A DNA stretch of 54,046 bases, the filler included, from Basidiobolus ranarum (lineage: Eukaryota): the NCBI GenBank assembly GCA_040143965.1. It is 4 parts of 4 records of this genome, joined end to end, with 100 filler letters (N's around TTAATTAATTAA, not from the genome) between each part and the next. Parts side by side here need not be neighbours in the genome. Positions count along the whole stretch, not along the records: positions 1 to 13,451 come from JASJQH010007356.1; 3 more parts are not named here. One strand, 5' to 3'. The first letter of the stretch is position 1. Every line of letters starts with the position of its first letter. Made by a program: the position numbers and the translations under genes. The notes below the pieces were generated by a model that did no database searches, had not been told where the DNA came from, and worked only from the letters and a program-made list of their open reading frames with translations. Below are positions 1 to 26,210 of this stretch, in pieces.

Positions 1-752
1 TCGAAGCATGGAGAGTACCTTTCTGCTTTGCCTTGACTGTATATCTCACATTCACCATATACGTAGCTGTCACTGAATATGCTGTCAACAAGTCTCTGCC
101 GACAAACTTCCCTCTCATTGTAAGTCCATATTCCCATTTTCTAGATAATTAAGCACTTCTAATCCATCGATGTGTTTAGATGATGAACCGTATAGTGGCC
201 TGCACGGCAATAAATATGTTTGCCATAACCAACTTGGCTGGATGTGTGGCGAATGTTGTTCAACTAATGAGGGGCACGGCCTCCAAGCCGTTTCCCAAAT
301 GGCTAGCTCATTGGCTTAATCATCGTAAAAATCTTGGTTTACTAGGCTTTGCAGGGATTATGATTCATGGTTGCATGGGGGCTATTGTTTCTTTCCATTC
401 CTTCGCAGAACACTTTAACTTTCAAGATCAAATCAGTTTGTTCTTCGCCAACATATCCATCCTGTTGTACGGTATTTTGTCGATATCCTCGCTACCCGGT
501 ATTTCGACAAGCCTAAGCTGGCGCGAATGGCGGTTTATTCAATCCCGCCTCGGTTGGTTAGCTCTTTGTATAGGCTTCACTCATGATTTACTGATGACCA
601 CCCCTTACTGGAAATACCTACTTAACGGCAAACCGCCATCCGTTGGCTTCATTAGTGCAATGTTGCCAGCCTTCACAATTACACTCAAAATTATTCTAAC
701 ATTACCCCCAGTAAGCTGGAGGCTTTCTCGTGTGTTACTGGGCAAAAAATGA
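1..752 (+). CDS. STEAP-family metalloreductase, transmembrane ferric-reductase domain (5'-truncated at contig start)
   Basis: Exon 3-119 (EAWRVPFCFALTVYL...FPLI), GT-AG intron 120-179, exon 180-752. STEAP-like motifs QLMRGTASKPFPKWLAHWLNHRKNLGLLGF and SLPGISTSLSWREWRFIQSRLG; two transmembrane His (IHG, THD) as candidate heme ligands. Confidence 0.85.
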
Positions 753-783
753 AAATTTACGAGCAAATACCTAGAATGGATCA

Positions 784-804
784 ATATATATATATATATA
801 TATA
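784..804. repeat. (AT)n microsatellite
   Basis: Run of atatatat... just 3' of the STEAP stop codon. Confidence 0.9.
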
Positions 805-1567
805 CACTAACACTAACCCTAAGACCCACTAAACCCAAATTTCGTAAACTATAAACATAAATTCCAATCTTGGTCATAACGCACAAGCCTCTATCTAGGT
901 AGATAATCTATATACACCATATTATATCTGCAATGGAATTTCCGATTGACCACACAAGCGTAAAGAACATCTTTGGAAAGATGGAAACAGATTGACGGCA
1001 TACATATTTGAGCTGCTTTGCTCGGTAAAAGAACTTTCTAACGAATCCTATTCGCTTGCGCTAGGAATCAAGAATCACCAAATCAATCTTGAATATCCGA
1101 CGTTTCGCTGTACAGCTGAGACTGTCTAGATTTGATACCAGGAACCAATAAATGTCCGTCAATATGAGCATATATCATTGGGATTTTTTGAATCCTCAGG
1201 ATATTGTTATCACTGATACTTTTGGTTTCGAATCGTGACGTGTCATCCTTAATCGCTCAATCAAGATTGCTAAACGCGCATTCATCCAATTTGTAACTCA
1301 ACTCCCTTTTTAGAACTCTCTTTTAGAAGTAATTTTCGTTGAATCTTGAAATCCATCCGTGTACCTGGGTTGTTACTTGACTTTTATATCTGTTGTCGCG
1401 ATTGTTAGCTCCTCTTGTTCACTTAATTATCTCTTTGAAGTTCAGTGCATTAAACCACGAAATAATGCAAAATCTTCAAAATAATTATTACATTTGATAT
1501 ACTATTGTTTACTTGAACTGGCTGACTTTTCACCTATAATCCAAAATCTAGCTTTCTTCTTTCCTAA

Positions 1568-4500
1568 ATGCACTACAATCAGGCCCCAAACAGGCCTCTC
1601 GCTTTTAGATCTGCGAGATCTACTTCGTACGACCATACAGCACTTTCTAATGATAATAATGAACTAAACGAGCAACCGACTGCCTTCAATTCTTCTTTAT
1701 CCACACTTACGCTCACATCACCCGTGGGTTTGAACGAGACACCTGGTGACATGGAACCTAAAGATTCTATGGCTTTCAATGAGCAATATACTCCTCCCAT
1801 ATCTCCTACAGATCCAGCTTTTCATCAGTTTTTTTTAAGAAAACTCAGCTTTAGACCTAGTGAAGTGAAGGTGTTAATATATGATGAAGACATTTTACAC
1901 GGGCGTCTAGTAAGACAACATTTGAGGAAGATAGGTTATCTAGGTATGATACGTGTTTAAGGTGGATTTAGGAATTCAACAACTAAACTTACTCTTATGG
2001 TAGTTGATTTGGTCGCGGACAAAAATTCTGCTTTAGCAATCCTACGGAGATCTTGTTCAGATTCTTCAGTAAGTTTTCATTCTTGGTGAATATCTAGTTT
2101 ATATATGCTTATATAGTGCCTACATAGATTGAGAACCAATCTACATCGTGTTATCAACTGGTTATTGTTAGTATCACCTGTGAAAACTCCGACGGCTTCA
2201 ACGAGGGACTTGAGGTTCTTCAACTAGTGCGCTCCAGTGAAACACTTAAAGATCTTCCCGTGATTAGTAAGTTTTCTCCCAGTATATTATATCTCCAACA
2301 CTTCTAACCATAAATTTAAAGTGATGGCCGATCCTGAGCAACTCGAACTTGCTTGCAATTGTCTACAACTAGGAGCAGATGACTATGTTTTAAAACCTGT
2401 TAGACTGGAAACTGTGAAAACTGTCTGGAGAAGTGTATGGCGAAAACGTAAAGAACACAAGGTAACACCAACTATCAAGATTATCCTAAATGTACATCTA
2501 TTCTGAATGATTATTTACTACAGGTTATGTTGATGCTTGAAGAAGAGCGCAATAAAAGAAGATCACTTCAGCTTGCAGTTGATAAGCTACAAGATCAGAT
2601 GTTACAAGCAATAGAGACACCCATTAATCTGATTACAAGAACCGTGACTGACTTATTGCAAAGCACTGGGATGTCTGACGAGGCCAAGTATGTCAATATA
2701 ACAATATCGAGCCCTTAATACAATTCTTACTAATTGATTTATGTAGAAATACGCTTGCCACTATCTTATCTTCCTTGAAGTCTACCAATTTATATCGACC
2801 AGCCTTTGAAAAACTTTTACATAATAAACATCTAGATGCTGAGACCCGAAACTGGCTATCAACGGAGGTAATTAAAGACGCTCTACTGTCCACCCCACCA
2901 GATGGAGTACTCCTGGAGCGATCTCGGTATTCGTATCCTTCACGACATCGTAGAGCATCATCTTTCGAAGGATCAATCAACTCTGCTTTTAGCGATAGCA
3001 TCTGGCCCTCAGAAATGTGGGATCGTAATCGGGCGAATGAGCCTGAGGACTCTGCAGATTACAAAAATATGAGAAATGGAACGTATTACCATTGCTTAAA
3101 TCAACGCCGTAACTCGGATACTCAGCAGCTAACACGGTTTGCAAATGGATTCAGATCACGAAGACAAAGAATACATAGTATACATGAACAGGCGTCGAAT
3201 GAAGAGCCATTCGGACCTGAGGGGCCTTCATTGAACTGTTTTCTGGAACTATCTGACATTAAGAATGAGGATGCTGTTAATAGTGACAATCTCAGCACCG
3301 GCTTCAAACGTGATTATACTTACGACAAGCCTCTGGAAAACATTCCTGAATGTTGCCTCGATGGAGATGAAGATGGCGATTCACTCGTTGCCGATGAAAT
3401 TGTGACCAAGCAACCCCCAGTTACTAATGATGGAGAGCTGGCCTCTGTCGATCAGTCAGAGCCTTCTCTTGATGCCGCAGACTCGCACGAATACCCAAGT
3501 TCGAATCGCAACGGGCTCCAATTATCAACTACTGTTGATCGAAAGAATGGATTAGAAGCAATTAGTACAGTGCCACCCACTCCAACTTCTGAGTGCAGTT
3601 ATCCAGAGCCACCCCCTAGCCCTATGACTATCGTTCCACAACCTCAGAGAGCGGTTGTACTCAACTCGTGGGGATTTGATGTCTGGTCGTACACTGAAAT
3701 GGAACTTTTACCGTTCCTAGTTGACATGTTTAATGAGCTTGGATTTATCGAGCATTATAACATATCATTAGAGACACTTACGTGCTTCTTTCATGCAGTC
3801 AAGGATGGGTACAACACCTCACACAACCCGTACCACAACTTCCGACATGCTTTTGACGTCACACAAGCTGGATTCTTATTTTTACGTGAAGCATGTGATC
3901 TCGATTTCAATGGAACTTCGCAAGCAGGTGAAACTAAATTATCTTCCAAAATGGAAAATCAGGAGCCACCAAAATCTCCACCTTTAGACGCTACACCTGT
4001 GGTAGAAGCGGCCAAGCAATCGTGTGACTCCACTGCAGACAATGTAGAAAGCAGCAGTCAGGAATGCTCTGACCCATCCCAGAAGGTGGATGACACTCAT
4101 TGTGCGTTTACTATGAATGAGAAATTTGCATTTATAATTGCATGTCTCTGTCATGATCTATCACATGATGGACACACCAACAATTTCCATGTAGCAACCA
4201 ATTCGGAGCTAGCAATTCTTTACAACGACTGTTCGGTTCTAGAGAATTTCCATGCACACCAAACGTTTGTCTTATTACGTAGTCTGCCAGAAGCCAATAT
4301 ATTCAGCAACCTATCAGCCTCGGTGGTCGCCGAGCTACGTTCTATCATCATCAAATGTATACTGGCCACCGATATGGGTAAGCATATGGAAGTGATGGCG
4401 AATTTCAACGAATGCGTCACTTCCGGATGGCGATGGGACGACAGGAGCCACCGACTTCGATTACTAGAAATGCTTATGAAGTGTGCAGACATCAGCAACA

Positions 4501-4869
4501 CTGCTAGACCCCTCCATCTGGCCCGTGTGTGGTCTGATCTTATCCAGGAAGAAATGTTCAATCAGGTAATGTATTTCGAATATTCTCCATGCATTTGGTA
4601 ATATATGACCAACTCTCTTGCACTTGTCATTACAGGGTGATCAAGAAAAAGACATTCAACTTCCAGTCTCTGCCTTCGGAGATCGTGATAACCCGCAGCA
4701 ACCACGACTGGCAATCACATTTGCTGATTTCGTGGTTACACCTCTATTTAAGGCGATATCCGGTATTCTTCCTTCGATACTGGTTCATGTGAGAAGCTGC
4801 AGTGCCACTCGAGAATATTGGAGTGTGTATATGAATTCTGGAAGAGATAAATCTAGCGCATCAACATGA
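1568..4869 (+). CDS. RegA-like receiver-domain / class I cyclic-nucleotide phosphodiesterase fusion (7 exons)
   Basis: Introns 1944-2003, 2069-2127, 2267-2321, 2462-2523, 2688-2746 and 4566-4635 give one open frame. Receiver: KVLIYDED...YQLVIVSI...EGLEVLQLVR...DLPVIMM...GADDYVLKP. Coiled-coil linker. PDE motifs YHNFRHAFDV, CHDLSHDG, VLENFH, LATDMGKH, KCADISN, EEMFNQGD. Confidence 0.9.
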
Positions 4870-5266
4870 TTACTTAGGAATTCTTAAATCTCTGGCTTTA
4901 AATGGAATTTCGTTTTCATTTTTTTATTATCTCTGTTTTTGTATATAATTTTTGAAAACCGATTGGAGCACAACTTAGAGGGTGAGTTATGATATTCAAT
5001 GCGAGATATTACTATTCACTACGGCAATTATAAGCATAAATAAAATTACCGATTAAATGCTCTTCCACTATTGGAGTGTGCCTTCTCCGTTAATTTGTTC
5101 CCCACGAGAAGTGCTCGCATTCAGTATAACCTTTTATAAATTCAACTTGGATCTCGTCAAGTCATGGAGGTCAATCTGGTTGGCCCTGAAATATGCATAG
5201 ATAAGATATATGATAGGATCTAGATGTAGTAGAGGAGAGGATATGTACATAAGAATCTCTAAATTA

Positions 5267-7261
5267 CTAAGGGTGGTACACTTCGGAAGCTGTAACCGGT
5301 ACACTTAACGAAAGTACTTCTTTTTTAAGTGAAGTGAACAACTGCTCTGGAAGAAGGTACAACGTTTGTTTTGAACTTGGTTGCTTTTCTTCCAGAGTTT
5401 TGACAGAAGACAAAGCTATAAATAGCTTCGACATCTCATCTTGACTAGCTAAATGAACTAGTTCTACCTCTCCAGTTTTGTATGTCAAATGACTCGTCTT
5501 GAGCGACTCTAAAGAGCAGTCTAAATTACGGAACTTTTCAATCACCAACTGACGGAGGTCTTGATATAGAATATTTTCATGAAGGTTGAGGTTCATAGAG
5601 TTGTCAGAGTCTAGAACGATTTTAAGTATTTTCTGTTCAGTAACAGCATTATCTAATTGATATGAGTCTGACTCCTCTGGCAGTGAAGGTGACTCTGTAG
5701 GGCTGGTTTTTTCAAGTTTGCCTTTCCTTCTACCTTGTCTATCTGAGTGGCGGACTCTACGTGCTCTATAGCTTCCAGACAAAGTTTTTGCTTTGGTTGT
5801 AACGGAATTTCTATTTGAGGTGGTTAACTCATTTTTTCTAAAGTTCGCTAGAGTATTTTGTTTTTGAAGGGAGACCAAAGCAGTTTGACGACGACTAGAG
5901 GCTCTCTGTAGTTCGTGAGATTCTCTACGTTGGGAGGGTTTTTCATTTTGTTCTACGGTAGACTTATTAGAATGATGGGTACCCTGCCTTTTCAAAAAAG
6001 ATTCTTGAATCTCTATCACTTCTCTCATCCAAAAGAACTCCTCCAAAAGGTTATTTGAGGGCAAATAAAAGGTGAATTTATCAGTATTATCCACTATGAT
6101 CTTACGCAAGTCTTCATTGGTAGCCACTATGACGACTTTATTATCCCGTTTGTAGCAAAGGACAATCATCTCTTCCCTATCATACTCGGTGATTCCACTT
6201 TTGTTGAACTTAGCAAAGACTCGCTGTCGTAGTTCGTCGAGTTGAATATTTCGTGGTAGCAAAAAGTTGATGATATGTTCAGAGTTGAAGATCACTTTCG
6301 CCCGAATGAAAGGAGATACAAAGTGCATACTTCTTTTGGCACCCAAGGTGTAAGTGTGGGATCTAGCGAGTGATTGTCGTTTATCTTCCAATGCAAGCAT
6401 CTCTTTAGGAGTAAGATGACGTATATTCCATGGGGCCACCTTTAAAGAAGGAGTTTTCCTTAGATTATTCCACGGTGTAGACATAGTGTAGTGACTTTGC
6501 AAACTGTTTGCTAAACATGTTTTGGCACGCTGAACAGAAGCATCTGAGTTTACCATCCGCTCAGAATTTTGCCTCGATTCCAGTCGAGGTCTATTCTGTT
6601 CAGGCAGTTGTTGTTGCTGTTGCTGTTGCTGATATTGGTGTTGTTGTAAATAAGATTTCTTTCTTTCTTGACAGCGTTGTTTGTGTGGATGGTTTCTAAT
6701 ATGAGGACGTTGGTTTGACAAATCTTGGTTCAGTTTGTTGCTTGAGATCAACGGAGCGGTAGTGATTTTTTTGGCTTCAGGACTTAGCTCTCTACCCAAG
6801 TAATCGATTTTATGAGAGAAAGTAGTTTCATTAAATCCATTTTCCTTCAAATCTCCCTTCCACAAACCCAAGAATTCGGCGAAACAAAGGGAAGATCTTA
6901 CTTTCAAGGGTAATTGAAAGATTTTGGTTAAGAATCCATTTAGATCTTCTTTTCTACGTTCAGCGTACAACATCTTAGAGAACAGTAATCTTTTTCGGGT
7001 TTTCAATTTGGGTACTTGGCAGTTGGAGTTATTACATTCTACTGTGATGTAGTTGGCGAAGTATTGAAAGTGTTCGAATCTTCTAAAGATTTTGTAAGAT
7101 CCCTCCAGGTAGTGATAGTCCTCTTTCGTATCTTCTGGAAATGGGACCACGGTCATAACGAACCAGCACGTTTCTCTACGTAAGTCCAATCCTGTAATTT
7201 GAGCGCTTGCCAGTAGTGGTGCATGCTTGACAATAGGGGATGTGATATGAACTGCTGCCAT
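5267..7261 (-). CDS. PX-domain protein with two probable PB1 domains and a polyQ linker
   Basis: 664-aa intronless ORF. PX-like YKIFRRFEHF...PKL...ERRKEDLNGFL; PB1-like FIRAKVIF...LCYKRD...VATNEDL and ILKIVL...LTYKTGE...LASQDEM; (CAG/CAA)n near 6605-6645. Confidence 0.65.
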   Translation of the reverse strand: MAAVHITSPIVKHAPLLASAQITGLDLRRETCWFVMTVVPFPEDTKEDYHYLEGSYKIFRRFEHFQYFANYITVECNNSNCQVPKLKTRKRLLFSKMLYAERRKEDLNGFLTKIFQLPLKVRSSLCFAEFLGLWKGDLKENGFNETTFSHKIDYLGRELSPEAKKITTAPLISSNKLNQDLSNQRPHIRNHPHKQRCQERKKSYLQQHQYQQQQQQQQLPEQNRPRLESRQNSERMVNSDASVQRAKTCLANSLQSHYTMSTPWNNLRKTPSLKVAPWNIRHLTPKEMLALEDKRQSLARSHTYTLGAKRSMHFVSPFIRAKVIFNSEHIINFLLPRNIQLDELRQRVFAKFNKSGITEYDREEMIVLCYKRDNKVVIVATNEDLRKIIVDNTDKFTFYLPSNNLLEEFFWMREVIEIQESFLKRQGTHHSNKSTVEQNEKPSQRRESHELQRASSRRQTALVSLQKQNTLANFRKNELTTSNRNSVTTKAKTLSGSYRARRVRHSDRQGRRKGKLEKTSPTESPSLPEESDSYQLDNAVTEQKILKIVLDSDNSMNLNLHENILYQDLRQLVIEKFRNLDCSLESLKTSHLTYKTGEVELVHLASQDEMSKLFIALSSVKTLEEKQPSSKQTLYLLPEQLFTSLKKEVLSLSVPVTASEVYHP

Positions 7262-7522
7262 AACGAAAGTACGTCAAGTAATTTGAATAGGGACCGGTTC
7301 ACTTGCTAAAGCGATGAATGCGATCGGTTCGAAGAGTTTTCAGATCAAGAGAGAGGGTGTTAAGAGGAATTCCTGGCAGGAATGGAGCGTATATATATGA
7401 CATACAAATGCATGCTTATGTCTTTCCATACGCCTCTTTGTATGCCACTTTACAGTAGAATCATGGTAACAATTGAGCTACTGGCACTTCTATTCACTTG
7501 CAATCCACACTTGAGCTCATCA

Positions 7523-7574
7523 ATGGATTGATTCGAGGGATTGATTCGATGGATTGATTCGATGGATTGATTCA
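7523..7574. repeat. 4 x 13-nt tandem repeat (ATGGATTGATTCG)
   Basis: Units at 7523, 7536 (agggattgattcg), 7549 and 7562 (atggattgattca). Confidence 0.9.
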
Positions 7575-8259
7575 ATTTTGTGGTAATAAAATACGGAGGA
7601 TACTCCAGAGGATATATTCCTTCAATAGCTACCATTTTGAAATGTTCAATTCCTCAGCTGCCTGGCTCCATGCAGCCTAAATGCCCGACTACTTCTAGAT
7701 CTATAGAGAACTTTCGCTGCTGGACACTTCATTTACAATCGGTGCATTCCCCAAAGCCGCGTAAGAAATGCTGATGGAAATTCTCGAGACAGGCCCCAGT
7801 TTTCATTACAGTGGAAAATCACCCTCTTGTTCCCAATAAGGGATAAAGTAAGCATTTCAAATTGTTTGTTAATAGACTTTTGATGTTCTGCTTAGACAGA
7901 CACGAATTTAACTTGGTACCTGGTGAAACCTAAGGAGATCCCCCTTTTTTGAATCTTCTTTTAGTCGATAGGAATGTGGTTGGTGGCAACCATTCAGGCA
8001 ATTAATTTCATGTTACCTCAATGTCGTCACGTAATTTGGACAAAAAGAAAAATAAACTAATGCCTATGCGAACTTAAGAAGAGAGCTCAGGTAGTACAAA
8101 TATTTATTGTTGTAACCGAATATACTTCCTCTAGAACATTAAATCTTCGATTCATCTCCGCCAAGAATCTTTATAAATAAGTGAAGCTTTGGTAAGGAAA
8201 TGTCTATAACAACCTTTTTGTGCAGGTTCACTACTTTTTTTCTCTTATTACTGCTTTAT

Positions 8260-9075
8260 ATGTTCGGAAAGCAATATCTCACCGTAGCTTTATTAGCTTT
8301 GGCTTGTATTGGAAATGTCGAGGGCCACTCCTATCTTACCAACCCCGCTCCACGCGTTGATCGCGGTCAGTGCCGTTTGGATGGTAAGACTTTCACCGGT
8401 TCCAATCCTAAGATTTGCCAAGGGCCCTGCGAGTCCACAGAAGTGATCCCACTCAACAAACGTAAAGTTTACAAGAGAGGGGAAGATATCAATATTACTT
8501 GGGCCAGAAACAATCATCCAGGTGGTTTCGTTCGTTTAGCATTTGCACCAACCAAGAAATCCGGTAGTACCAGTGAATTTGAGAAGAATATTCACAAGTA
8601 TTCTTGTTACGAGGCAGGAGTTGGATGTCACGGTCAAGGTAAATCCAACCTTGATAAATTGGGTAATCGTGGTAAGGGGTGTAATACTGCCATCAAGATT
8701 CCCAAATGGTTAGATGATGGTGAGTGGACATTACAATGGTCTTGGTATGGTTCTATGCAAGGCCATGGTGATTTCTATTCTTGTTCCGATATTATCGTTA
8801 AAGGTGGCTCCAAAGGTAGCAAACAACCAGCAGCATTTGAAGGTGGCGATTCTCGTAACCCTAACAAGCAAGTATGCGCCATTGGTTGGGGTGATCGTCT
8901 TGGTGTTTGCAAGTGGAACAGATGTTGGGATGTTAAGAATAAGAACGCCCGTAAACCATTCGAAAAGAAGGGTTGGAATACCAATGTGGTCATTAACACC
9001 GTTCCTTACAGTAAAACTGCTCTCAAGATGTTACCCGCTCGCAACCCCAAGTCTAGTAAATCTACTCCTTGGTAA
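8260..9075 (+). CDS. Secreted lytic polysaccharide monooxygenase-like protein
   Basis: The ATG at 8260 gives signal peptide MFGKQYLTVALLALACIGNVEG followed by His1 (HSYLTNPAPR). Second His in NNHPGG; WTLQWSW...FYSCSDI; Cys/Lys-rich C-terminal module. Confidence 0.75.
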   Translation: MFGKQYLTVALLALACIGNVEGHSYLTNPAPRVDRGQCRLDGKTFTGSNPKICQGPCESTEVIPLNKRKVYKRGEDINITWARNNHPGGFVRLAFAPTKKSGSTSEFEKNIHKYSCYEAGVGCHGQGKSNLDKLGNRGKGCNTAIKIPKWLDDGEWTLQWSWYGSMQGHGDFYSCSDIIVKGGSKGSKQPAAFEGGDSRNPNKQVCAIGWGDRLGVCKWNRCWDVKNKNARKPFEKKGWNTNVVINTVPYSKTALKMLPARNPKSSKSTPW

Positions 9076-9400
9076 ATTTCATTCTCTTCAATGTCATTTT
9101 AGGATATGTATTGAATAAAGTTGAATAATTTAATCAATTTTAAGTATTTTCCTTGGTAAATTCGTATTTATGCACTATTTTTGGGTACAAGTGTAATATA
9201 GTCTCTCAGTTGGTGTCAGCCTCTTAACACTTAATATTCTTATGCAGCGGATAATATCACAAGCGATTGGTTCACTTTTATTATAAATCAGCATCAAAGA
9301 AAAGATTCATATGCAGATCATTTCAAGATTATATAGTAAATGAGTATATTGATTTTTAAAGCCTGCGGACTTAGCCCTAACCCGAATCTGACATATGAAC

Positions 9401-10703
9401 TTAAATGTTTCCATCATGATCAACCGATATATCTTCAAATAATGACAGCGCCTCTTCCAAGATACGGTATGAATTTTCTTTTCCAGAAGTACCATCGGAC
9501 GAATCACCAGCCGCTCTAATACCCAACACTTTTCTACCTAAGATGTTAATATTCAAGTTACGGATTTCTTGTGACCATTCCTCTCTAGGTTTGGCTCCTA
9601 CTCCCCACCTGCCGGTTCCGTCCACAACCAGTCCTCCAGATTCTTGAAGAATTATCATGGCCGCTGCGATATCCCAAACGTGAACACCAATTTCCCAATA
9701 AATATCAGAACCACCTCTTGCTAGCATGCATAAATTAAGTGCAGCAGAACCAGTAGATCTAATTCCACGAACATGGCCACCAGCGGGGACACTACTATTT
9801 GCTGATGCCATACGATGGATCGAGGACACCTTAGAGTTAATCACCGAAGGATTACGATCAGCACCATACTCGGTCACAAAGAGACAGTGGGCAAGGTCAG
9901 GGAGAGGTGGGGGATTGGGGTGAGTAAGTGGTAAGGTAGCACCGTTAAGTTGAGCGCCATATCCCTTAGCTCCAGTGTAAAGCTTAAATAAAAATTTCAA
10001 GAATTAGTTGAACGTATATAATCCCATGATATTTTTCAAACTTTTACCTCGTCAAGAATTGGATTATAGACTACACCAACCACTGGCTCTTTGTTAATGG
10101 CCAAACCGATGCTTACAGCAACAAAAGGAAAACTATCAATATATTAGTTAGCTATGGTGAGTAAAGTGTAGGTCAAATACAATAAAACCCCCATTACCCG
10201 TGAACAAAGTTGGTAGTTCCATCTAAAAGATTATCAAATAATAGTAAAGGTAAGTTATTAACAATAAAGAACAATAAGAGCTCCAAGGCTCTTACCAATA
10301 GGGTCTACAATCCAAGTAGGTTCGTCGGTAAGCTTCCAAGCCTCACCACTAGCCGTAGTTTCCTCCCCAACAAACCTAAACCAGACGAGATGGTTAACAA
10401 TGTAAGGAAAAATAAAGAGAAACTGAGAGAAAAATGAAAGCTGAAGTACTTATGGTGTGGGTATTTTTCCTTTAGTTTTCCAAACACCAATTTCTCCACT
10501 AACTGGTCGGTGGCGGTGACAAGGTCAGTTGGGTTTTCGTCCTTAATGTGAAGACTTGTACTTTTACTATAAAATACATCCTTGATGATGGCACCAGCCT
10601 CACGAGCTACTAGTACTGCATATTCTAAGAAAGGGATTATTTCTTCAACGGAGGTTGGCTGACTCATCTCGATGGATACAGTTGAGTTGGACTCTAAACT
10701 CAT
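9401..10703 (-). CDS. Inositol monophosphatase (multi-exon)
   Basis: [31 protein letters not shown] and WDIAAA motifs across exons with GT-AG introns. Confidence 0.9.
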
Positions 10704-11345
10704 AAAAGTTTGTGTGAAATAGGGATTTATCGGGATTAATTCATAAATTTCTAGCGCTGGATGGTCATGCGATTATGATGAAGTACTGATCAGAATAAGC
10801 ATCGAAATGACCCGACAAGAATAGGCATATAAATCAAGGCTTGTTTTAGTAACAAATTGGAGCAAGATACCTGACATTTATATGAAATATACTTGGCTCT
10901 TGACTCGCACTCCCGCTCAATTATTGATGCATCTTGTAAGTCGAGTAACGCAGACCCACATGGAAATCAGCTGCATGAATGAAGTGAGAGGAAAGCAAGA
11001 GCAATCATTTGGACTTATACCTCCGAAGATTTGCTAGAGATTATGAGCCACCTGAGACTGAGTTACCAGATTTGTGCTAGTGCCGAGACAACAGCAATTA
11101 ACCTGATGGTGTTAAAACCATTCGGAGGATTCCGGATTTTGATACTTCAATATCTATATTAAATATCGACATGTCAATTTCTCACGTACATCTCTGTATC
11201 CAAATTAGGAAGTGCAATAATCGTTTAATGAAAATATCAAATGATTTTACTTCTAGTTACCGATTTCACCCATCAATATTTTTATCACGGCCTTGATCAA
11301 GGTGAATTCTTTCCGTTTTCTGGTCTTTACACTCCAACTCCAATC

Positions 11346-12779
11346 ATGTCCAATAGTAGGAACGCTAATGGAGGTCCTCAAAGGCAACTATCGTTGACTG
11401 AAAGTGCCACCATTTCTGCTATATCTCCTGCGGTTGCGGTGTTTCTCACCAACCCTTTTGACGTTGGTACGTGATTAGAAAACATTGCCATGGTTACCAA
11501 AGAAACTCACTCTTCCTCCATTACAGCTAAAGTAAGAATGCAACTACAAGGCGAAGGAGTTGCTGGTCAAAAAGTAGCCTATCTTTTCTCTAGTCTTTTC
11601 GGCCACGTACTAAAGAAATAATTTTCATTTCAATAGATATACAAGAATAGTTTCGATTGCATGTGGAAACTTTGGAGTAATGAAGGTGAATGCACTCCAT
11701 CCTGTATTAAGTCTCCATAATATACTAAATAATTTGCTTAAATAGGTTTCCAAGCATTATATAAGGGTATTACACCAGCTGTGTATAGAGAAGGCTCCAA
11801 AAATATTTTTCGTATCGTACGTTTTGTTACTTGATGGATAATACTTGAATAGGATTCTTTATCTTAACTGTTGTTCTCAGGGAATGTTTGATCCATTATT
11901 GAATGCTGTACATGATCCAAATTCTGGAGTCACTGCACCCACTTGGAAGCGTGTTGTAGTAGGAAGCCTTTGCGGTGCAATGGGCGCGGTTAGTTGTAAC
12001 CCTTTCGAGTTGGCCAAAACGAGGTACCTTTCTTTCTGGTTTAATGTCGACTTTGAAATGATTTAATGAACTCGTTATTAGACTACAATCGGCTGTGAAA
12101 ATCACTGGAGCTGCGCATGTTGGCTATCAACACGGGTAAGTTACAGTCGTTTCTTTTGTTATAAACATGGAAATCTAAACAGGTTGTAAACACAATGTTC
12201 GGGTATATAGATACTCGGGGCTCAACGATGCGTTGATAAGTGTCATAAAGCGAGATGGATTCTTAGGTCTGTATAGAGGCTCTATGATGTCTATGGCTCG
12301 TTCTTTGGTAGGAAGTGGAGCGAATATGAGTACATATTCTCTGAGTAAAGAGTACATGCTACGAAATGGATTCCAAGATAGCGCATGGGTTGACATTGTA
12401 TGTGGATTCTATAGCGCATTTTGGTCGGTTCTGTGCATGAATCCTATTGATACCTTACGGGTTAGTTTAATTCCAATCCACTTCATTCGTATCTATTTCC
12501 CATGTATTAATAGTGAAATTTGTGTGATAGACTCGTCTCTATAATCAACCTACCTCTCAAAATGGTGCCGGACTTCTCTACGCGAATGGTTTTGATGCAT
12601 TTAAGAAAGTCACTTCATCTGAAGGTTATGGAGCGCTTTACAAAGGATTTGTATCCCACTTCTTGCGTATCGGACCTCATTTCGCCCTCTCCTTTTGCTT
12701 TGTAGGGATTTTACGTCGGGCCATCTTCACCTATAAAGATTCTAAAGAGGGGCTCGTCACGGCAACAACATTGTTTTAG
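11346..12779 (+). CDS. Mitochondrial carrier, oxaloacetate carrier / SLC25A34-35-like (multi-exon)
   Basis: Three PxD/ExxKxR repeats (NPFDV-AKVRMQ, NPFELAKTR-LQ, NPIDTLR-TRLY); HFLRIGPH; TAG at 12777-12779. Confidence 0.85.
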
Positions 12780-13211
12780 TATGGGTCGCGTAACTTCATT
12801 GGAATACTTCCCATTTCATTCATTCCTGTACACACAATCACATCTAATTCCTTTCATTTCACTGCTCTTGTTTTCCTTGATATATTGCATCCCTTCCTTG
12901 CCACGTGATTCGCCCACTAACCTCTGGCCAATCACCCAATGTAAAGGAAATATACTCATACTCATACCATTATCTTTATCTACCATACTACATTATGTTC
13001 TGGCATACCATACGAGCACCTCTGAATATATTGTACCTTACAAGCACCTCTAAAGAAGGTCATTGTGTCAAAATGATTTTATCCATATAGTTGATCCAAA
13101 GTGGATGATTGAGATTTATTAGTTAGAGGAGGGGATATGAACTTTCTACTATTGATGATGAAGGTAGGTATTGGATAAATGAGAGGTATTGTAGAAAGGA
13201 TCAACGAACAT

Positions 13212-13451
13212 TTAGAGGATCAACCGAAAAATGGTCAAAAATGTCAGGGGAATCAGGTACGAGTGGATCCTGATATTATTACTCTCACTAGCCAGATAGT
13301 TTGAGGGAGTAGACTTGAGTGCATCAGTTTGCGCTACAACCGCACTGACTATTACTGGCGTCGTGGAAGTAGCAATTGTAGAAGTAGCAATTGTGGGAGT
13401 AGGTATGCTAGTGGTGGGCACTATCACGTTGGCTAGATCTGGGGAATCACC
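13212..13451 (-). CDS. C-terminal fragment of a Ser/Thr-rich, probably GPI-anchored or membrane protein (truncated by contig end)
   Basis: PTTSIPTPTIATSTIATSTT stalk, SESN candidate omega site and hydrophobic C-terminus; the frame runs into the N gap. Confidence 0.55.
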   Translation of the reverse strand, partial: GDSPDLANVIVPTTSIPTPTIATSTIATSTTPVIVSAVVAQTDALKSTPSNYLASESNNIRIHSYLIPLTFLTIFRLIL

Positions 13452-15307: not shown

Positions 15308-17203
15308 CTAGTAGCCTGACCAATAGGCTCCATTGTTTGTGACTTTGGCTGAGTCGTAAACAAGATAGGTAGAACTGTTGTATGGTCGGGACGGGAACAC
15401 GCCAATAAAGTTGCTCTGAATTTCCATACTTTTTACTGTGGCTGACCCATTGACCCAGTATCCCACGCCGTTAGCGTTGTTGCTTGTAGGATAAACTCGA
15501 GTTGTCAAGGCAAATCGGTCATTGGCGTAGATCTCAATGATTGAGTTATCAACCCAAATATCCAATTCCAGAGTTTCCCGATCGATAGTGCGTTCGATCT
15601 GGTTATAGAAATCAAACAGCGAAAAGAATCCAGTGACCGGCGTTGTGGTGAACTGGTGGATCAGAGTGGATCGGGAACGATCTACAGTGATGGTGGAATT
15701 TCTTGGATCAAATATAATACTAGTGCGTTCTTGAGTTTCGTCGCTAGAGCGAAGGACAAGAGCGACTTGGGAATCGTCATGGATAGATAGACTAGCCTTC
15801 AAGCGGAATTTATCTCCGAGGTTACTCAATCTGTGCATCTCTCCCTCGCCATGAATGGTTTTGTTCATCATAATGGCCGGTTGCATCGGTACAAACAAAT
15901 TGCGCACTTGTTGTACGGGCTTTATACCCATCGTTGTAACCGTGTATGTCCCATTTTGATTTTCTCGGGCAGTCCAGGGGGATCTCTTGGTGAGCATTCC
16001 ATTGGTGTTGACTACGCCAGTGTAAGTTTTTACTGATAATTCTCGAGGAAGAGTAAGTGCGCCTTGGTATCCCATTGCCTTATCCCCGTAATTATTTGTA
16101 TCTTCGGCAATCCAGCCAAGGGCGATTCTCTTTCCAGAAGAGCTATCCAAGAACGAACTAATAGCGTAAGTAATTCCCCAATCCATAGCTCCAGTGGCGA
16201 TTGTTTCAAATTTAACCGTCTGATCATCAGTATGTGCAGTGATTATGCCCTCAGACCAGATGGAAGAATGATTATTGATATGGAATGAGTTGGCTGCACC
16301 TTCGGTTCCCATCGTAGCAAAATGATGCAGGTTTCCCTCTTCATCAGGAAGAGTAAAGACGTTGGCACATTCGAAGTTGAACCCATACCCAAGAGAGTGG
16401 TCACTCCAACTAGCATTTAGGCCTTGGGATACAATCTTTCCGAGGAAAGTCCACTCTGTGAGATCATTCTTTGGTGCGGAATATAGCAGTACATCAGGCC
16501 CAACCTCTTTGATACCACCGGAGACTGTCACATAGGCATGCTTCACTTCATTATCGGCTCCGTAGATAATACTATCCAAAGGAGTACTGGGGTCTATGTA
16601 CATCGAATCACGGAAAGCAGTTACGTTGTAGCCCTTTGGTGGATGAAGAATAACTGGTTTTCCATCGTTATAGGGAGTCCAGGTGTTACCATAATCACTG
16701 GAAACGGCCAAAGCTTGAGATGAAGTTCCATAGATATATGGACGATCCCAACTGGTTGGTAGATGCTTTACTGCTGTATACATGATGGTTAAGTTTCCAT
16801 CTCCTCCATCGATTAGGGATCCATCAAAAACACCCAGTTGATCTGGAGAGTTCGGAGTGGGAGACAAGGCAATTGGGTTCTCCCAACCACCAACATCGTA
16901 CCAGACGATAAGATCACTAGAAACAGCATGGCCCCAGGTCATATTCCCCCATTGGACGTGGTGTGGATGCCACTGATAGAAAAGATGGTAGGTCCTGGTA
17001 TTGGGTTCGTAGAAGGGAGCACACGGGTCATTCATCCAAGAGTTAGGTGCGATGAAATGATAAGAAGGCCGCCACTTCTGAAAGAGGGTATTGTTAGCTA
17101 CGGTATTAAGATCCTCAGAAGAGAGATTCCAGGCATTTGCTGCTGGTTGCAGTAAAGCGAGAGAAACCCCCAGAAGAGAGTGTATCCATACCGAAGAAAG
17201 CAT
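15308..17203 (-). CDS. Secreted GH32 beta-fructofuranosidase (invertase/inulinase)
   Basis: Signal peptide; WMNDPC nucleophile motif, WGHAVS, FDGS, FRD, FEC; C-terminal beta-sandwich (VDNSIIEIYAND); intronless. Confidence 0.93.
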   Translation of the reverse strand: MLSSVWIHSLLGVSLALLQPAANAWNLSSEDLNTVANNTLFQKWRPSYHFIAPNSWMNDPCAPFYEPNTRTYHLFYQWHPHHVQWGNMTWGHAVSSDLIVWYDVGGWENPIALSPTPNSPDQLGVFDGSLIDGGDGNLTIMYTAVKHLPTSWDRPYIYGTSSQALAVSSDYGNTWTPYNDGKPVILHPPKGYNVTAFRDSMYIDPSTPLDSIIYGADNEVKHAYVTVSGGIKEVGPDVLLYSAPKNDLTEWTFLGKIVSQGLNASWSDHSLGYGFNFECANVFTLPDEEGNLHHFATMGTEGAANSFHINNHSSIWSEGIITAHTDDQTVKFETIATGAMDWGITYAISSFLDSSSGKRIALGWIAEDTNNYGDKAMGYQGALTLPRELSVKTYTGVVNTNGMLTKRSPWTARENQNGTYTVTTMGIKPVQQVRNLFVPMQPAIMMNKTIHGEGEMHRLSNLGDKFRLKASLSIHDDSQVALVLRSSDETQERTSIIFDPRNSTITVDRSRSTLIHQFTTTPVTGFFSLFDFYNQIERTIDRETLELDIWVDNSIIEIYANDRFALTTRVYPTSNNANGVGYWVNGSATVKSMEIQSNFIGVFPSRPYNSSTYLVYDSAKVTNNGAYWSGY

Positions 17204-18310
17204 ATTGTTGTTCCGAGGAATAGGATTTGAAGTCTATTTATAAACTTTGAAGACATACCTATTTAGGAAATGGGACCACGGTAGTGAGTCAGTATATAAA
17301 GAAAACGGGTACACTTTACTCCGGCAATGGTACCACTTTGCTAAGCACTACATCCTATTGGGAAGGAATGTACACAACAAGTGGGTTAGCATCAATAAGT
17401 GAACGGAGCTGTCAAATCCAATGAATTCAAGACAGCCCTGTCCTAAATTGATCTGGAACCGGTGCGCCACTATCGACAAAAGAAGCTAGTTAGATCTTTC
17501 GCGAGCACTAGAAATCGTTAATCTAGATAACTCAACCCAACGAAAATCACTGTCTCAGCCTCATTTGTATTTTAGTAATTTCACAACTGTTACGAAACAA
17601 TCGAAATGTTTCAGCTAATTGAGGATAGATAACTACATATGGGTGGATTTAGAATGAATTGTGGTAAATTGTGACATATCTATTAGTGGAAGAATATAGG
17701 GCTAGGCATCCGATTTACGATCGGAATTGTAATCCTGATATCAAGTGAGTATGTGGCGCTTAACAGTCGTTGAAAATCTGAGAGAGTCGGCTCCATGTCT
17801 AATCGCACTCATTACCATACGCATAAGGCTTGAAAAGTGGATGAACTCTAGCTGATAAGGATATGTGAATAAAGAATAGTATTAACACAAACCAATGACT
17901 GTGGAAGAAGGTAAATAGCATTGTATTTCGAAATTGACTACATAGTATCTAATAGAATGAGGCGGAACAAGCTAAACAAAATCGATGGAAAGGGAACAGT
18001 ATGCCAAGTTTGAAGTCATTAAAAACCAATGGAAATCTTGGAAATATTCCGACATAATGCAGTATAGGTGCTTTCATTACCAACTTTTCCAAGATGAAGT
18101 CTATTAACAATTGGCTTACGTCATCGATATTTGTGTACTTACTGAATGTTGGAAAATAGACTGACCTATCCCAGAGATGTTGAGAAAACCTGAGTTCTCA
18201 ACCAGGCAAGACTTTTCTCCACTTCCTTAGTACAGAAGGAACACATATCTGTGCTGTTCTTCTTTTTTGCAGTACTATTATCAATATCTTGCTTTAATAT
18301 AGTCAAAAGC

Positions 18311-24066: not shown

Positions 24067-24995
24067 AGTACTGTTGATTATTGATTAACTACTTCAGTAT
24101 ACCTCATAAAATCAATACACATCTTGTCAGCTCTACCATCATAACTGTCATATATTTTGTTCGCATGATTAGTGTCCCCAATTGGGTGAATGGGAAATGC
24201 ACTGTAAATCTATATATTAATTCGTTTATGGTAAGTTAGTGTAATATATTCAAGAGAATAATCATTCCTGAGATATTACAAATAAGCAGCTATTATTCAA
24301 CCAGGAAGCAATGAACTTTGGGGAAGGAGTAGAGAATACTTATGTCTAGAATTTATGTCACTATGACTTGACTCGGAAATCTTCGGAGTTTGATGAAAAT
24401 AATACTAGAATATCCCAGTTATGGTGATAGATACTCTTTATCTGGATGAAAATTATGATGTCTATGCTCTTTGTTTGCAAAGATTGTTGGTGAATTTACT
24501 CATAGGAAAACAAAACTCTTGCCTGAAATATCGGCATTTCAGGCGAATGATTGTTATGTAAGAAGGGTTAGAACCTGAGACCAAACATAGGTCGACTCCG
24601 CGTATTTGTAATGATCGGAAAAGGCAATCTTGAAGTGTGGGGATAGAAATGTCTTCTCAATTGGATTGGAAATTCAACTAACTACTATATTAGTCTTGTA
24701 AATGAAAATCGTCGAGTTAAATTCCCCCATTAATATAGCTAAGCCATTACTCCGCATGAGCACCCATCTTACATCTATCTTGAAGTGACCCAAGTGTTTA
24801 ACGATTTTGGTTTAAGGAGTAGTGGAGAGGAAAGGGAAGCGTCCAAGACCCAAAAACGAGTTACGGTCGTTGTTACACAGTTTAAACCGCAACTAACCCG
24901 AGAATGCTATCTTTCAAAGTATATAAGACATCACTGTGAGAAACAGTAATTCTACATTCAAGAAACCAACTAACTATCAACAACAATAATCAGCC

Positions 24996-26210
24996 ATGCC
25001 TCAGATGAACCCAGGAGACCTTTACGAACAAGTGAAAATCACTCGCTCGGATGGGAATATACCACATATTCTTATCATTGGTGGCGGTGTTTCTGGACTT
25101 ACTACTGCTTGGGCTTTGTGCGAAGCGGGATGTAAAGTAACAGTTATTGCCAAGCAATACTCGTCCACCCGACCTGAGAAAGAAAAGATCGCTTCTGAAA
25201 TGGGTAGCGGTTTGTGGGAATGGGCTCCTTCGGCCAGTGGATCTAGTAAAGATGCACAAAACGAGTATCAAAATTCCAAGCGTTGGTGTCAGCCAACTTA
25301 TGTCAAATTCGAAGAACTCCATGCAAAATACGGTGCGGATATTACTGGAATTCGCTCTCGTATGTCCTGCTTCGTGTTTGATAAAAATATCGAAAATATT
25401 GATGAATCTGCCAAGAATAAGATGATAGAAATCAAGGAACATTGCGATGGATTCTACCGTGGCGTAAAGCATCTGGTCAGAAAGTATAACATCAGCACAG
25501 TTGGAGAGAAAGCTTTCGATTTTCAAGATGGTTATGAGTATTTCTCTTATGTAGTTGACCCAAAGAAGTACCTCGCATGGTTGAAGAGAAATATCGAGGA
25601 GCTTGGTGTTCGTCTCTTGAAATTTGAAGTAACCGGGAATCTGTTAAATGAAGGAGAAAATTTGCTAAATATGTTTCAGGCCGACGTACTGGTTAACTGC
25701 ACTGGATTAGCATCTGTAAGCCTATGTCATGACACAGAGTTGGTCCCCATTCGTACCACTCTATTACATTCCAGAAACGATGGTGTTCGGTTTCCTATGA
25801 TTAAGAGTTGCATCTCTGTCTACAAGCATGTTGGTGCTAGATCAGAAGAGAGAAGTAGATACGAGATTGAGCGCACTATATTCCTTATCCCACGCAATGA
25901 TAAAGCACTGATTATGGGCGACAATTCCCAGATGCAAAATAATGCAAATATTCTACAGGAAATACATAAAAATTGTACGCGTCTCTATCCCGAACTCCGA
26001 AATGCTGAACCCATCGATTATGACTATCACACCCAACAATATCGTAAATACCCTCGAGTTGGTCAAGATAAGGACAACAGTAAAATTTTCCACAACTATG
26101 GACATGGTTACTCGCGTTATAGCTTATCGTATGGATGTGCTCTTGATGTTCGTAAAGCAATTCGACGATATTTTGATGAACTCGATGTTAAACTGAATAG
26201 TCACTTATAA
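24996..26210 (+). CDS. D-amino-acid oxidase-family FAD-dependent oxidoreductase (divergent)
   Basis: ILIIGGGVSGLTTA Rossmann motif, VNCTGL, C-terminal HNYGHG...SYGCA; intronless. Confidence 0.8.
   Translation: MPQMNPGDLYEQVKITRSDGNIPHILIIGGGVSGLTTAWALCEAGCKVTVIAKQYSSTRPEKEKIASEMGSGLWEWAPSASGSSKDAQNEYQNSKRWCQPTYVKFEELHAKYGADITGIRSRMSCFVFDKNIENIDESAKNKMIEIKEHCDGFYRGVKHLVRKYNISTVGEKAFDFQDGYEYFSYVVDPKKYLAWLKRNIEELGVRLLKFEVTGNLLNEGENLLNMFQADVLVNCTGLASVSLCHDTELVPIRTTLLHSRNDGVRFPMIKSCISVYKHVGARSEERSRYEIERTIFLIPRNDKALIMGDNSQMQNNANILQEIHKNCTRLYPELRNAEPIDYDYHTQQYRKYPRVGQDKDNSKIFHNYGHGYSRYSLSYGCALDVRKAIRRYFDELDVKLNSHL

What the first reader, a model, noticed from the sequence alone, without database searches (positions are those of the whole stretch)
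1568..4869. Fungal RegA-like receiver-cAMP phosphodiesterase
Seen: splicing joins a receiver domain, a coiled coil and a complete class I PDE. Known: the receiver-PDE fusion RegA is the histidine kinase/RdeA phosphorelay output controlling PKA in Dictyostelium, whereas Dikarya response regulators are Ssk1, Skn7 and Rim15, and Pde2 has no receiver. The linker (AIETPINLITRTVTDLL...ILSSLKSTNLYRPAFEKLL...ETRNWLSTE) resembles the RegA linker as I recall it. The usual PDE invariant Gln position reads Ala (PRLAITFADFV), which I also recall as RegA-like. Inference: an ancient receiver-to-cAMP signalling module retained in early-diverging fungi.
Basis: partly seen in the sequence, partly recalled or inferred. 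Interest (0 to 1): 0.8.

Follow-up and report, generated by a model that had tools for sequence, protein, structure and literature searches.

The report
Fungal RegA-type phosphodiesterase lacking phosphoacceptor aspartate
This fungal gene is a real relative of the slime-mould enzyme RegA, which destroys the messenger cAMP on command from sensor kinases, but the fungal copy has lost the amino acid that receives that command, so it must be controlled another way.

Summary
The gene is real. Seven exons give 978 aa, identical to a Basidiobolus ranarum protein in NCBI; a paralogue keeps all 6 intron positions.

It is RegA-family. Receiver, coil and linker align with Dictyostelium RegA (28% identity, E 5e-28). 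A linker profile built without opisthokonts scores it 87 bits and passes 0 of 120 Pde2-type proteins. Both have Ala at the invariant Gln. Orthologues occur in Blastocladiomycota, Sanchytrium and the holozoan Pigoraptor, forming a well-supported clade (100/98).

Two corrections. First, the receiver is aspartate-less: RegA D212 is Ser162 and the conserved Ser/Thr is Ala196, so it cannot be a normal phosphorelay output, though it is strongly conserved. Second, Pde2 does have a cryptic receiver in Mucoromycota, Basidiobolus and Sordariales.

The Catenaria orthologue is already listed as an 'atypical receiver' with a phosphodiesterase domain (PMC8510515 supplement), without the RegA link.

Best reading: an active, probably cAMP-preferring PDE whose pseudo-receiver is an allosteric module, perhaps switched by Ser/Thr kinases. 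PDE8 and transcripts were not tested.

The parts
1568..4869 (+). Seven-exon gene for a 978-aa receiver - coiled coil - helical linker - class I PDE protein (B. ranarum KAK9710230.1)
1799..1864 (+). Conserved pre-receiver segment (aa 78-99): SPTDP, a predicted helix (83-92) and the basophilic site RKLS (91-94)
   Evidence: 91% identical between paralogues; SPTDP in 6 of 7 and R[KR]LS in 6 of 7 named fungal N-termini shown; helix at pLDDT about 63-74
1865..2419 (+). Receiver-fold domain (aa 100-226, exons 1-4): D106/E107 and K218 kept; phospho-acceptor Asp replaced by Ser162, Ser/Thr by Ala196
2170..2172 (+). Ser162 codon AGT at the column of RegA D212; mid-exon, so no splice choice restores Asp; paralogue has AGC
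2420..2607 (+). Long helix continuing receiver helix 5, probable coiled coil (aa 227-268)
   Evidence: continuous helix 222-286; 93% identical between paralogues
2608..2873 (+). RegA-family helical linker (aa 269-337)
   Evidence: 86.9 bits, E 2e-26, against a profile from non-opisthokont RegA-type proteins; 0 of 120 Pde2-type proteins pass; 96% identical between paralogues
2874..3617 (+). Low-confidence, probably disordered insert (aa 338-585) with conserved islands around RRAS (363-366) and RRNS (415-418)
   Evidence: pLDDT below 50 at 341-580; 14-15 of 20 positions identical in three Basidiobolus proteins at the islands, 1-8 of 20 in most other windows of the insert
3618..4827 (+). Class I PDE catalytic domain (aa 586-965) with a variable insert at 678-745; metal and catalytic residues intact; Ala927 at the invariant Gln, Met at the F340 column

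Best explanation
An active class I cyclic-nucleotide phosphodiesterase of the RegA family, inherited vertically from the opisthokont ancestor and duplicated in Basidiobolus. SHOWN: architecture, family, intact catalytic residues, loss of the phospho-acceptor Asp and of the Ser/Thr, and strong conservation of the altered receiver, coil and linker. INFERRED: it prefers cAMP and lowers PKA activity (about 0.65); it is not switched by Asp phosphorylation from the HPt (about 0.9); the pseudo-receiver still couples to the catalytic domain through the long helix and linker, probably in a dimer (about 0.6). The input has most likely moved to Ser/Thr phosphorylation or partner binding at the receiver end (about 0.45), with the conserved RKLS and SP sites just before the receiver as first candidates. 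That would give PKA a feedback brake on its own signal.
For: All metal and catalytic columns checked match PDE4D and RegA; the model overlays PDE9A at Z 44, rmsd 1.7. Asn at the PDE4 N321 column and Ala at the Gln column are shared with RegA, which is cAMP-specific (PMC11988041 passages). D212 maps to S162 in two multiple alignments and by eye in the pairwise alignment; S162 ends strand 3 and A196 ends strand 4 in the model. Of 80 receiver-plus-linker proteins outside the opisthokont clade, 60 have all five receiver residues, 11 are truncated or gapped and 9 deviate; 0 of 13 in the opisthokont clade show all five. Between paralogues, synonymous sites are saturated (pS 0.78-0.99) while receiver, coil and linker are 84%, 93% and 96% identical. 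Fungi form one clade (100/100) with Pigoraptor and one unnamed ENA protein as sister (100/98).
Against: No activity, transcript or phosphosite data. Kinase motifs are short and common. The substrate cannot be read safely once the invariant Gln is gone, and the best solved-structure matches are the cGMP enzyme PDE9A. Dimer formation was not modelled. The window clade is not sister to Dictyostelium RegA with strong support (89/88 for the larger group). NCBI also annotates a paralogue variant that starts inside the receiver (P0002), and the B. meristosporus model starts inside it too, so receiver-less forms may exist.
Confidence: 0.62

Rival explanations
1. True phosphorelay output as in Dictyostelium: histidine kinase to HPt to receiver switches the PDE on.
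For: The genome has the upstream parts: 24 HisKA matches and 2 HPt matches with the conserved His. Receiver fold, D106/E107 and K218 are kept. Blastocladiomycota orthologues keep the Asp.
Against: Asp is Ser and Ser/Thr is Ala in both B. ranarum paralogues. By the definition in PMC12632262 this is an aspartate-less pseudo-receiver.
Confidence: 0.06
2. The receiver is only a structural or dimerisation element and the enzyme is constitutively active, controlled by expression or by receiver-less isoforms.
For: Loss of two catalytic residues; shorter annotated forms lacking most of the receiver; Sanchytrium has no detectable receiver.
Against: 84% identity of the whole receiver and 91% of the pre-receiver segment at saturated synonymous sites suggest conserved surfaces, not fold alone.
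Confidence: 0.2
3. A cGMP-preferring or dual-specificity enzyme, for example the off-switch of cGMP signalling in these fungi.
For: Top sequence and fold matches are PDE9A; the invariant Gln is absent. Blastocladiomycota, which hold most fungal orthologues, have a rhodopsin-guanylyl cyclase (PMC4046227, search listing only).
Against: RegA has the same Ala and Asn and is cAMP-specific. PDE9 has Glu after this Asn where the window protein has Thr880.
Confidence: 0.2
4. A Pde2 duplicate or an independent receiver-PDE fusion that only resembles RegA.
For: Pde2-type proteins also carry a receiver. On catalytic columns alone the AU test does not reject joining them with the window clade (p 0.061).
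Against: Linker profile passes 0 of 120 Pde2-type proteins; Pde2 keeps Gln; with receiver columns added the union is rejected at p 0.028; the genome has four separate Pde2-type loci.
Confidence: 0.05

Closest known systems
Dictyostelium discoideum RegA (Q23917) and its amoebozoan and heterolobosean homologues
   Same: Receiver, coil, helical linker, class I PDE in the same order; 28% identity over the N-terminal module and 40-42% in the PDE; Ala at the invariant Gln.
   Different: D212 is Ser and S242 is Ala; two large inserts (aa 338-585, 678-745); a fungal pre-receiver segment; belongs to a different subclade.
Catenaria anguillulae A0A1Y2HN41 (CanguRR10 in PMC8510515 supplement)
   Same: [quoted passage not shown]
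   Different: Keeps the Asp. The paper's main text has no whole-word hit for RegA, Dictyostelium or cAMP, and Basidiobolus has no hit in main text or supplements.
Fungal high-affinity PDE Pde2/PdeH (solved: Candida albicans 6CPT/6CPU)
   Same: Class I PDE; an N-terminal receiver fold in Mucoromycota, Basidiobolus and Sordariales members.
   Different: No RegA linker, invariant Gln kept, separate clade at 100/99-100.
Animal PDE8
   Same: Receiver-like domain upstream of a cAMP PDE (PMC13095499 passage).
   Different: Has a PAS domain between them. No PDE8 sequence was among my fetched proteins, so kinship is untested. I recall that its pre-catalytic segment resembles this linker; that is a lead only.
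Fungal pseudo-receivers (Ascomycota Rim15)
   Same: Receiver fold without the phospho-acceptor Asp (PMC12632262, PMC8510515 passages).
   Different: Output is a PDE, not a kinase; the substitution is Ser, not the usual Glu.

Membership tests
RegA family | Receiver domain followed by a class I (HDc) PDE in one chain (definition in PMC3906536 section 3.1) | tested here: met
RegA family | Coil plus helical linker homologous to that of RegA | tested here: met
   86.9 bits, E 2e-26, with a non-opisthokont profile; no hit in 7 named or control animal-type PDEs, 0 of 120 Pde2-type pass
RegA family | One-to-one orthology with Dictyostelium RegA | tested here: inconclusive
   Groups with other protist receiver-PDEs (99/97); union with the Dictyostelium clade only 89/88; AU p 0.21
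RegA family | Phosphorylatable Asp (D212) that activates the PDE | tested here: not met
   Ser162 in the window, Ser165 in the paralogue
RegA family | cAMP-specific hydrolysis | not testable with these tools
   Only residue comparison
Canonical response regulator | Five active-site residues DD, D, T/S, K | tested here: not met
   D106, E107, K218 present; S162 and A196 replace D and T/S
Aspartate-less receiver (ALR) | Receiver fold lacking the Asp site | tested here: met
Class I PDE | Metal ligands and catalytic His, Glu, Thr, Asp; helical catalytic fold | tested here: met
Class I PDE | Invariant purine-binding Gln | tested here: not met
   Ala927, as in RegA (A690), which is reported as active; Gly or Ser in the other opisthokont members
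Fungal Pde2/PdeH | Falls in the Pde2 clade | tested here: not met
   Separate starred clades; AU p 0.061 on catalytic columns, 0.028 with receiver columns
PDE8 | REC-PAS-PDE architecture | tested here: not met
   No PAS hit at E 0.1
PDE8 | Phylogenetic grouping with PDE8 | not tested
   No PDE8 sequence among fetched proteins

The most novel reading that the evidence does not exclude
Fungi inherited two separate receiver-PDE lineages, RegA-type and Pde2/PdeH, so fungal class I cAMP phosphodiesterases are an overlooked class of response regulators. A direct HPt-to-cAMP link survives in the Asp-keeping members (Paraphysoderma RegA-type; Mucoromycota and Basidiobolus Pde2, which keep D, S and mostly K). 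The window protein shows the end point, a receiver rewired from Asp to Ser/Thr-kinase control, possibly at Ser162 itself.
Probability: 0.25. Interest if true: 0.8.

Novelty: new variant of a known kind. Interest (0 to 1): 0.55.

Why it matters
RegA was described from Amoebozoa and Naegleria (PMC3906536). An opisthokont clade that includes fungi and a filasterean shows that the module was kept in the common ancestor of fungi and animals. The clade records a stepwise decay of the phosphorylation site: Ser/Thr lost in all named members, the second acidic residue in Blastocladiales, the Asp in Basidiobolus. That is a ready-made series for asking how pseudo-receivers are switched, which PMC12632262 calls unresolved. 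The side result, a cryptic receiver on Pde2/PdeH, makes a direct link between two-component and cAMP signalling testable in laboratory fungi. The fusion itself is already in public annotation, and this copy is the least likely of its clade to be a phosphorelay output.

Tried and rejected
Two separate genes: rejected by the single spliced frame, the NCBI model and the paralogue's introns.

A hidden 72-nt intron at 3083-3154 (candidate): rejected, because the stretch is conserved as protein in three Basidiobolus sequences.

Contamination by an amoeba: rejected by the second copy in the genome, the B. meristosporus orthologue and the fungal clade.

Solved structure for the coil and linker: 6 weak, unrelated hits; an extended PDE9A alignment into the linker is low quality. 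One search returned nothing because my threshold was too strict.

The Clim_evm protein (P0148) has the linker (70.9 bits), but its Asp column differs between alignments, so I draw nothing from it. I mislabelled it Creolimax in scripts; the prefix is, from recall, Corallochytrium.

Pigoraptor's N-terminus looks incomplete, so its acidic pair is not counted as evidence.

PMC4395418 passages had nothing on PDEs. The Candida PDE2 structure paper was not found. The structural match to 6CPU did not cover the receiver region, which is inconclusive for yeasts.

Full report
GENE. Window 1-13451 is contig C7356 of G000. Seven + strand exons between 1568 and 4869 with six short GT..AG introns give 978 aa. 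This is letter for letter P0001, Basidiobolus ranarum KAK9710230.1, annotated only as a 3',5'-cyclic-nucleotide phosphodiesterase. The paralogue P0110 (C7328, 993 aa) has six introns at the same aligned residues and phases. RNA reads could not be examined, so splicing rests on the frame, the NCBI model and the paralogue.

DOMAINS. Pfam gives Response_reg above its cut-off (37.0 against 30.2 bits) and PDEase_I. The AlphaFold model (60-sequence alignment, mean pLDDT 68.8, pTM 0.51) has a confident receiver, a helix running from 222 to 286, three linker helices, a low-confidence insert at 341-580 and the catalytic domain with a second insert at 682-737. The arrangement of the domains relative to each other is not reliable. 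Structure matches: PDE9A Z 44.0, rmsd 1.7, 319 aligned; CheY Z 19.6, rmsd 1.8, 128 aligned.

FAMILY. D. discoideum RegA (P0197 = Q23917) aligns over residues 95-335 at 28% identity, E 5e-28, and in the PDE at 40-42%. To avoid circularity I built receiver and linker profiles from 15 non-opisthokont proteins only. The window protein scores 73.5 and 86.9 bits. Of 120 proteins from the Pde2-type search, 0 reach E 1e-3 on the linker (best 1.4 bits); 7 animal-type control PDEs give no linker hit. RegA has Ala690 where PDE4 has the invariant Gln, and so does the window protein (Ala927). Other fungal members have Gly, Pigoraptor and Gefionella have Ser, and many protist members and all three Pde2 proteins shown keep Gln. 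All metal and catalytic columns checked are intact.

DISTRIBUTION AND TREE. Named fungal members: B. ranarum (2), B. meristosporus, Catenaria, Allomyces, Blastocladiella, Sorochytrium, Paraphysoderma and Sanchytrium. Named others: Pigoraptor chileana (Filasterea), Gefionella, Gloeochaete, several Amoebozoa, Willaertia and Acrasis. No named chytrid, Mucoromycota or Dikarya protein with the linker appeared among the 109 rows or the best 120 of 795. Most rows are unnamed and the search needs shared words, so absence is not shown. Of 102 new proteins from the profile search, 39 went into the FastTree run, and none fell inside the fungal clade.

IQ-TREE (LG+G4, no mixture model) was run on subsets. 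Catalytic domain, 46 of the 120 rows: fungi 100/99, with Pigoraptor and one ENA protein 98/90, Pde2 apart at 100/100. Full length, 38 rows: 100/100 and 100/98. Receiver plus PDE, 36 rows: the window clade lies in a 17-row group with amoebozoan, Gefionella and Gloeochaete proteins (99/97) that excludes Dictyostelium RegA; the two join at only 89/88. AU tests: union with Pde2 p 0.061 (catalytic only, not rejected) and 0.028 (with receiver); union with the Dictyostelium clade p 0.21. An opisthokont clade points to vertical descent. Strict orthology with Dictyostelium RegA is open, and PDE8 was not in any tree.

THE RECEIVER IS ASPARTATE-LESS. RegA is activated through D212 (PMC11988041 passages). 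That column is Ser162 here and Ser165 in the paralogue, coded AGT and AGC in mid-exon. The Ser/Thr column is Ala196. PMC12632262 (passages) defines such domains as aspartate-less pseudo-receivers. Among 93 stored proteins with both receiver and linker, 60 of 80 outside the opisthokont clade have all five residues, 11 are truncated or gapped and 9 deviate. None of the 13 inside shows all five. Every named opisthokont member has Ala or Val at the Ser/Thr column; the unnamed ENA protein keeps Ser but is truncated. Paraphysoderma keeps DD, D and K; Blastocladiales keep D and K but lose the second acidic residue. PMC8510515 reads the next residue (Ser) as T for Catenaria; in Basidiobolus that residue is Asp, so neither register gives a Ser/Thr. 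The domain is not decaying: paralogue identity is 84% (receiver), 93% (coil) and 96% (linker) against 29-58% in the inserts, with synonymous sites saturated. The genome has 24 HisKA and 2 HPt matches, so the loss is not for want of a phosphorelay.

MECHANISM. Most likely the enzyme hydrolyses cAMP and limits PKA, and the pseudo-receiver still acts on the catalytic domain through the long helix and linker (inference from RegA and from conservation). Candidate inputs are the conserved SPTDP and RKLS just upstream of the receiver (each in 6 of 7 named fungal N-termini; a similar basic motif in 3 of 10 protist N-termini shown, not in RegA), and RRAS and RRNS in conserved islands of the insert. Reading these as PKA or proline-directed kinase sites rests on recalled consensus motifs. 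Rivals are a purely structural receiver, cGMP preference, true phosphorelay control and origin from Pde2.

PDE2 HAS A RECEIVER. The genome holds four Pde2-type loci (C2363, C6988, C610, C34). The Pde2-type profile's only PDB match at E 1e-95 is 6CPT/6CPU, the 'yeast caPDE2' structure. 99 of 120 Pde2-type proteins hit the receiver profile at E below 1e-3. Profile-profile: 25 Mucoromycota and Basidiobolus N-termini, probability 99.2, with D, S and K aligned (K in 22 of 25 by pattern); 13 Sordariales N-termini, probability 78.8, K in 0 of 13. A Podospora model gives (beta-alpha)5 with best Z 13.8 to a receiver domain (rmsd 2.3, 131 aligned), and rows 18-50 are almost all receivers. Yeast Pde2 was not tested.

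LITERATURE. PMC3906536 (passages and section 3.1) found RegA in dictyostelids, Acanthamoeba and Naegleria after screening GenBank eukaryotes. PMC4758236 (passages) adds Physarum. PMC8510515 (passages and supplement hits) lists the Catenaria orthologue and an Umbelopsis receiver-PDE among unclassified regulators, with no mention of RegA in the main text. PMC13095499 (passages) covers PDE8 and the invariant Gln. Ten searches listed no paper that, by title or abstract start, places RegA in fungi or describes a receiver on Pde2. The library lacks most subscription papers and bioRxiv supplements, and I did not see the caPDE2 structure paper, so prior mention is possible.

VERDICT. Observation confirmed; interpretation partly supported. 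A new variant of a known kind: a RegA-family PDE with an aspartate-less receiver. Interest 0.55.

Noticed in passing
L012 (G000:C2363:350-2956) and G000:C6988, C610, C34: Four Pde2-type genes. The C2363 model keeps D, S and K in its receiver-like domain and one residue of the acidic pair; the others show similar fragments.
   Followed up: partly
P0137, P0134, P0136, P0322, P0324, P0329, P0330, P0331, P0346: Protist-like receiver-PDE proteins with a C-terminal HPt domain, some with a second receiver: a phosphorelay step and its output in one chain.
   Followed up: no
P0368, P0393: GAF-containing PDEs that also score on the RegA linker profile (50 and 37 bits), so the linker is older or wider than the receiver fusion.
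   Followed up: no
L014, L017 (G000:C38, C7844): A third pair of class I PDEs, closest to unnamed proteins, not Pde2 or the window clade by best hits.
   Followed up: no
window 5267-7273 (-): Long open frame with PX and two PB1 matches, convergent with the PDE gene.
   Followed up: no
window 1-752 (+): 3' end of a membrane-protein gene that looks by eye like a STEAP or ferric-reductase tail; no Pfam hit.
   Followed up: partly
window 8185-9075 (+): Secreted-looking Cys-rich protein with His after a likely signal peptide, LPMO-like by eye; no Pfam hit at E 0.05.
   Followed up: no
window 15308-17233 (-) and 24990-26210 (+): Single long frames for a GH32 enzyme and an FAD-dependent (DAO family) oxidoreductase; these lie beyond contig C7356.
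   Followed up: no
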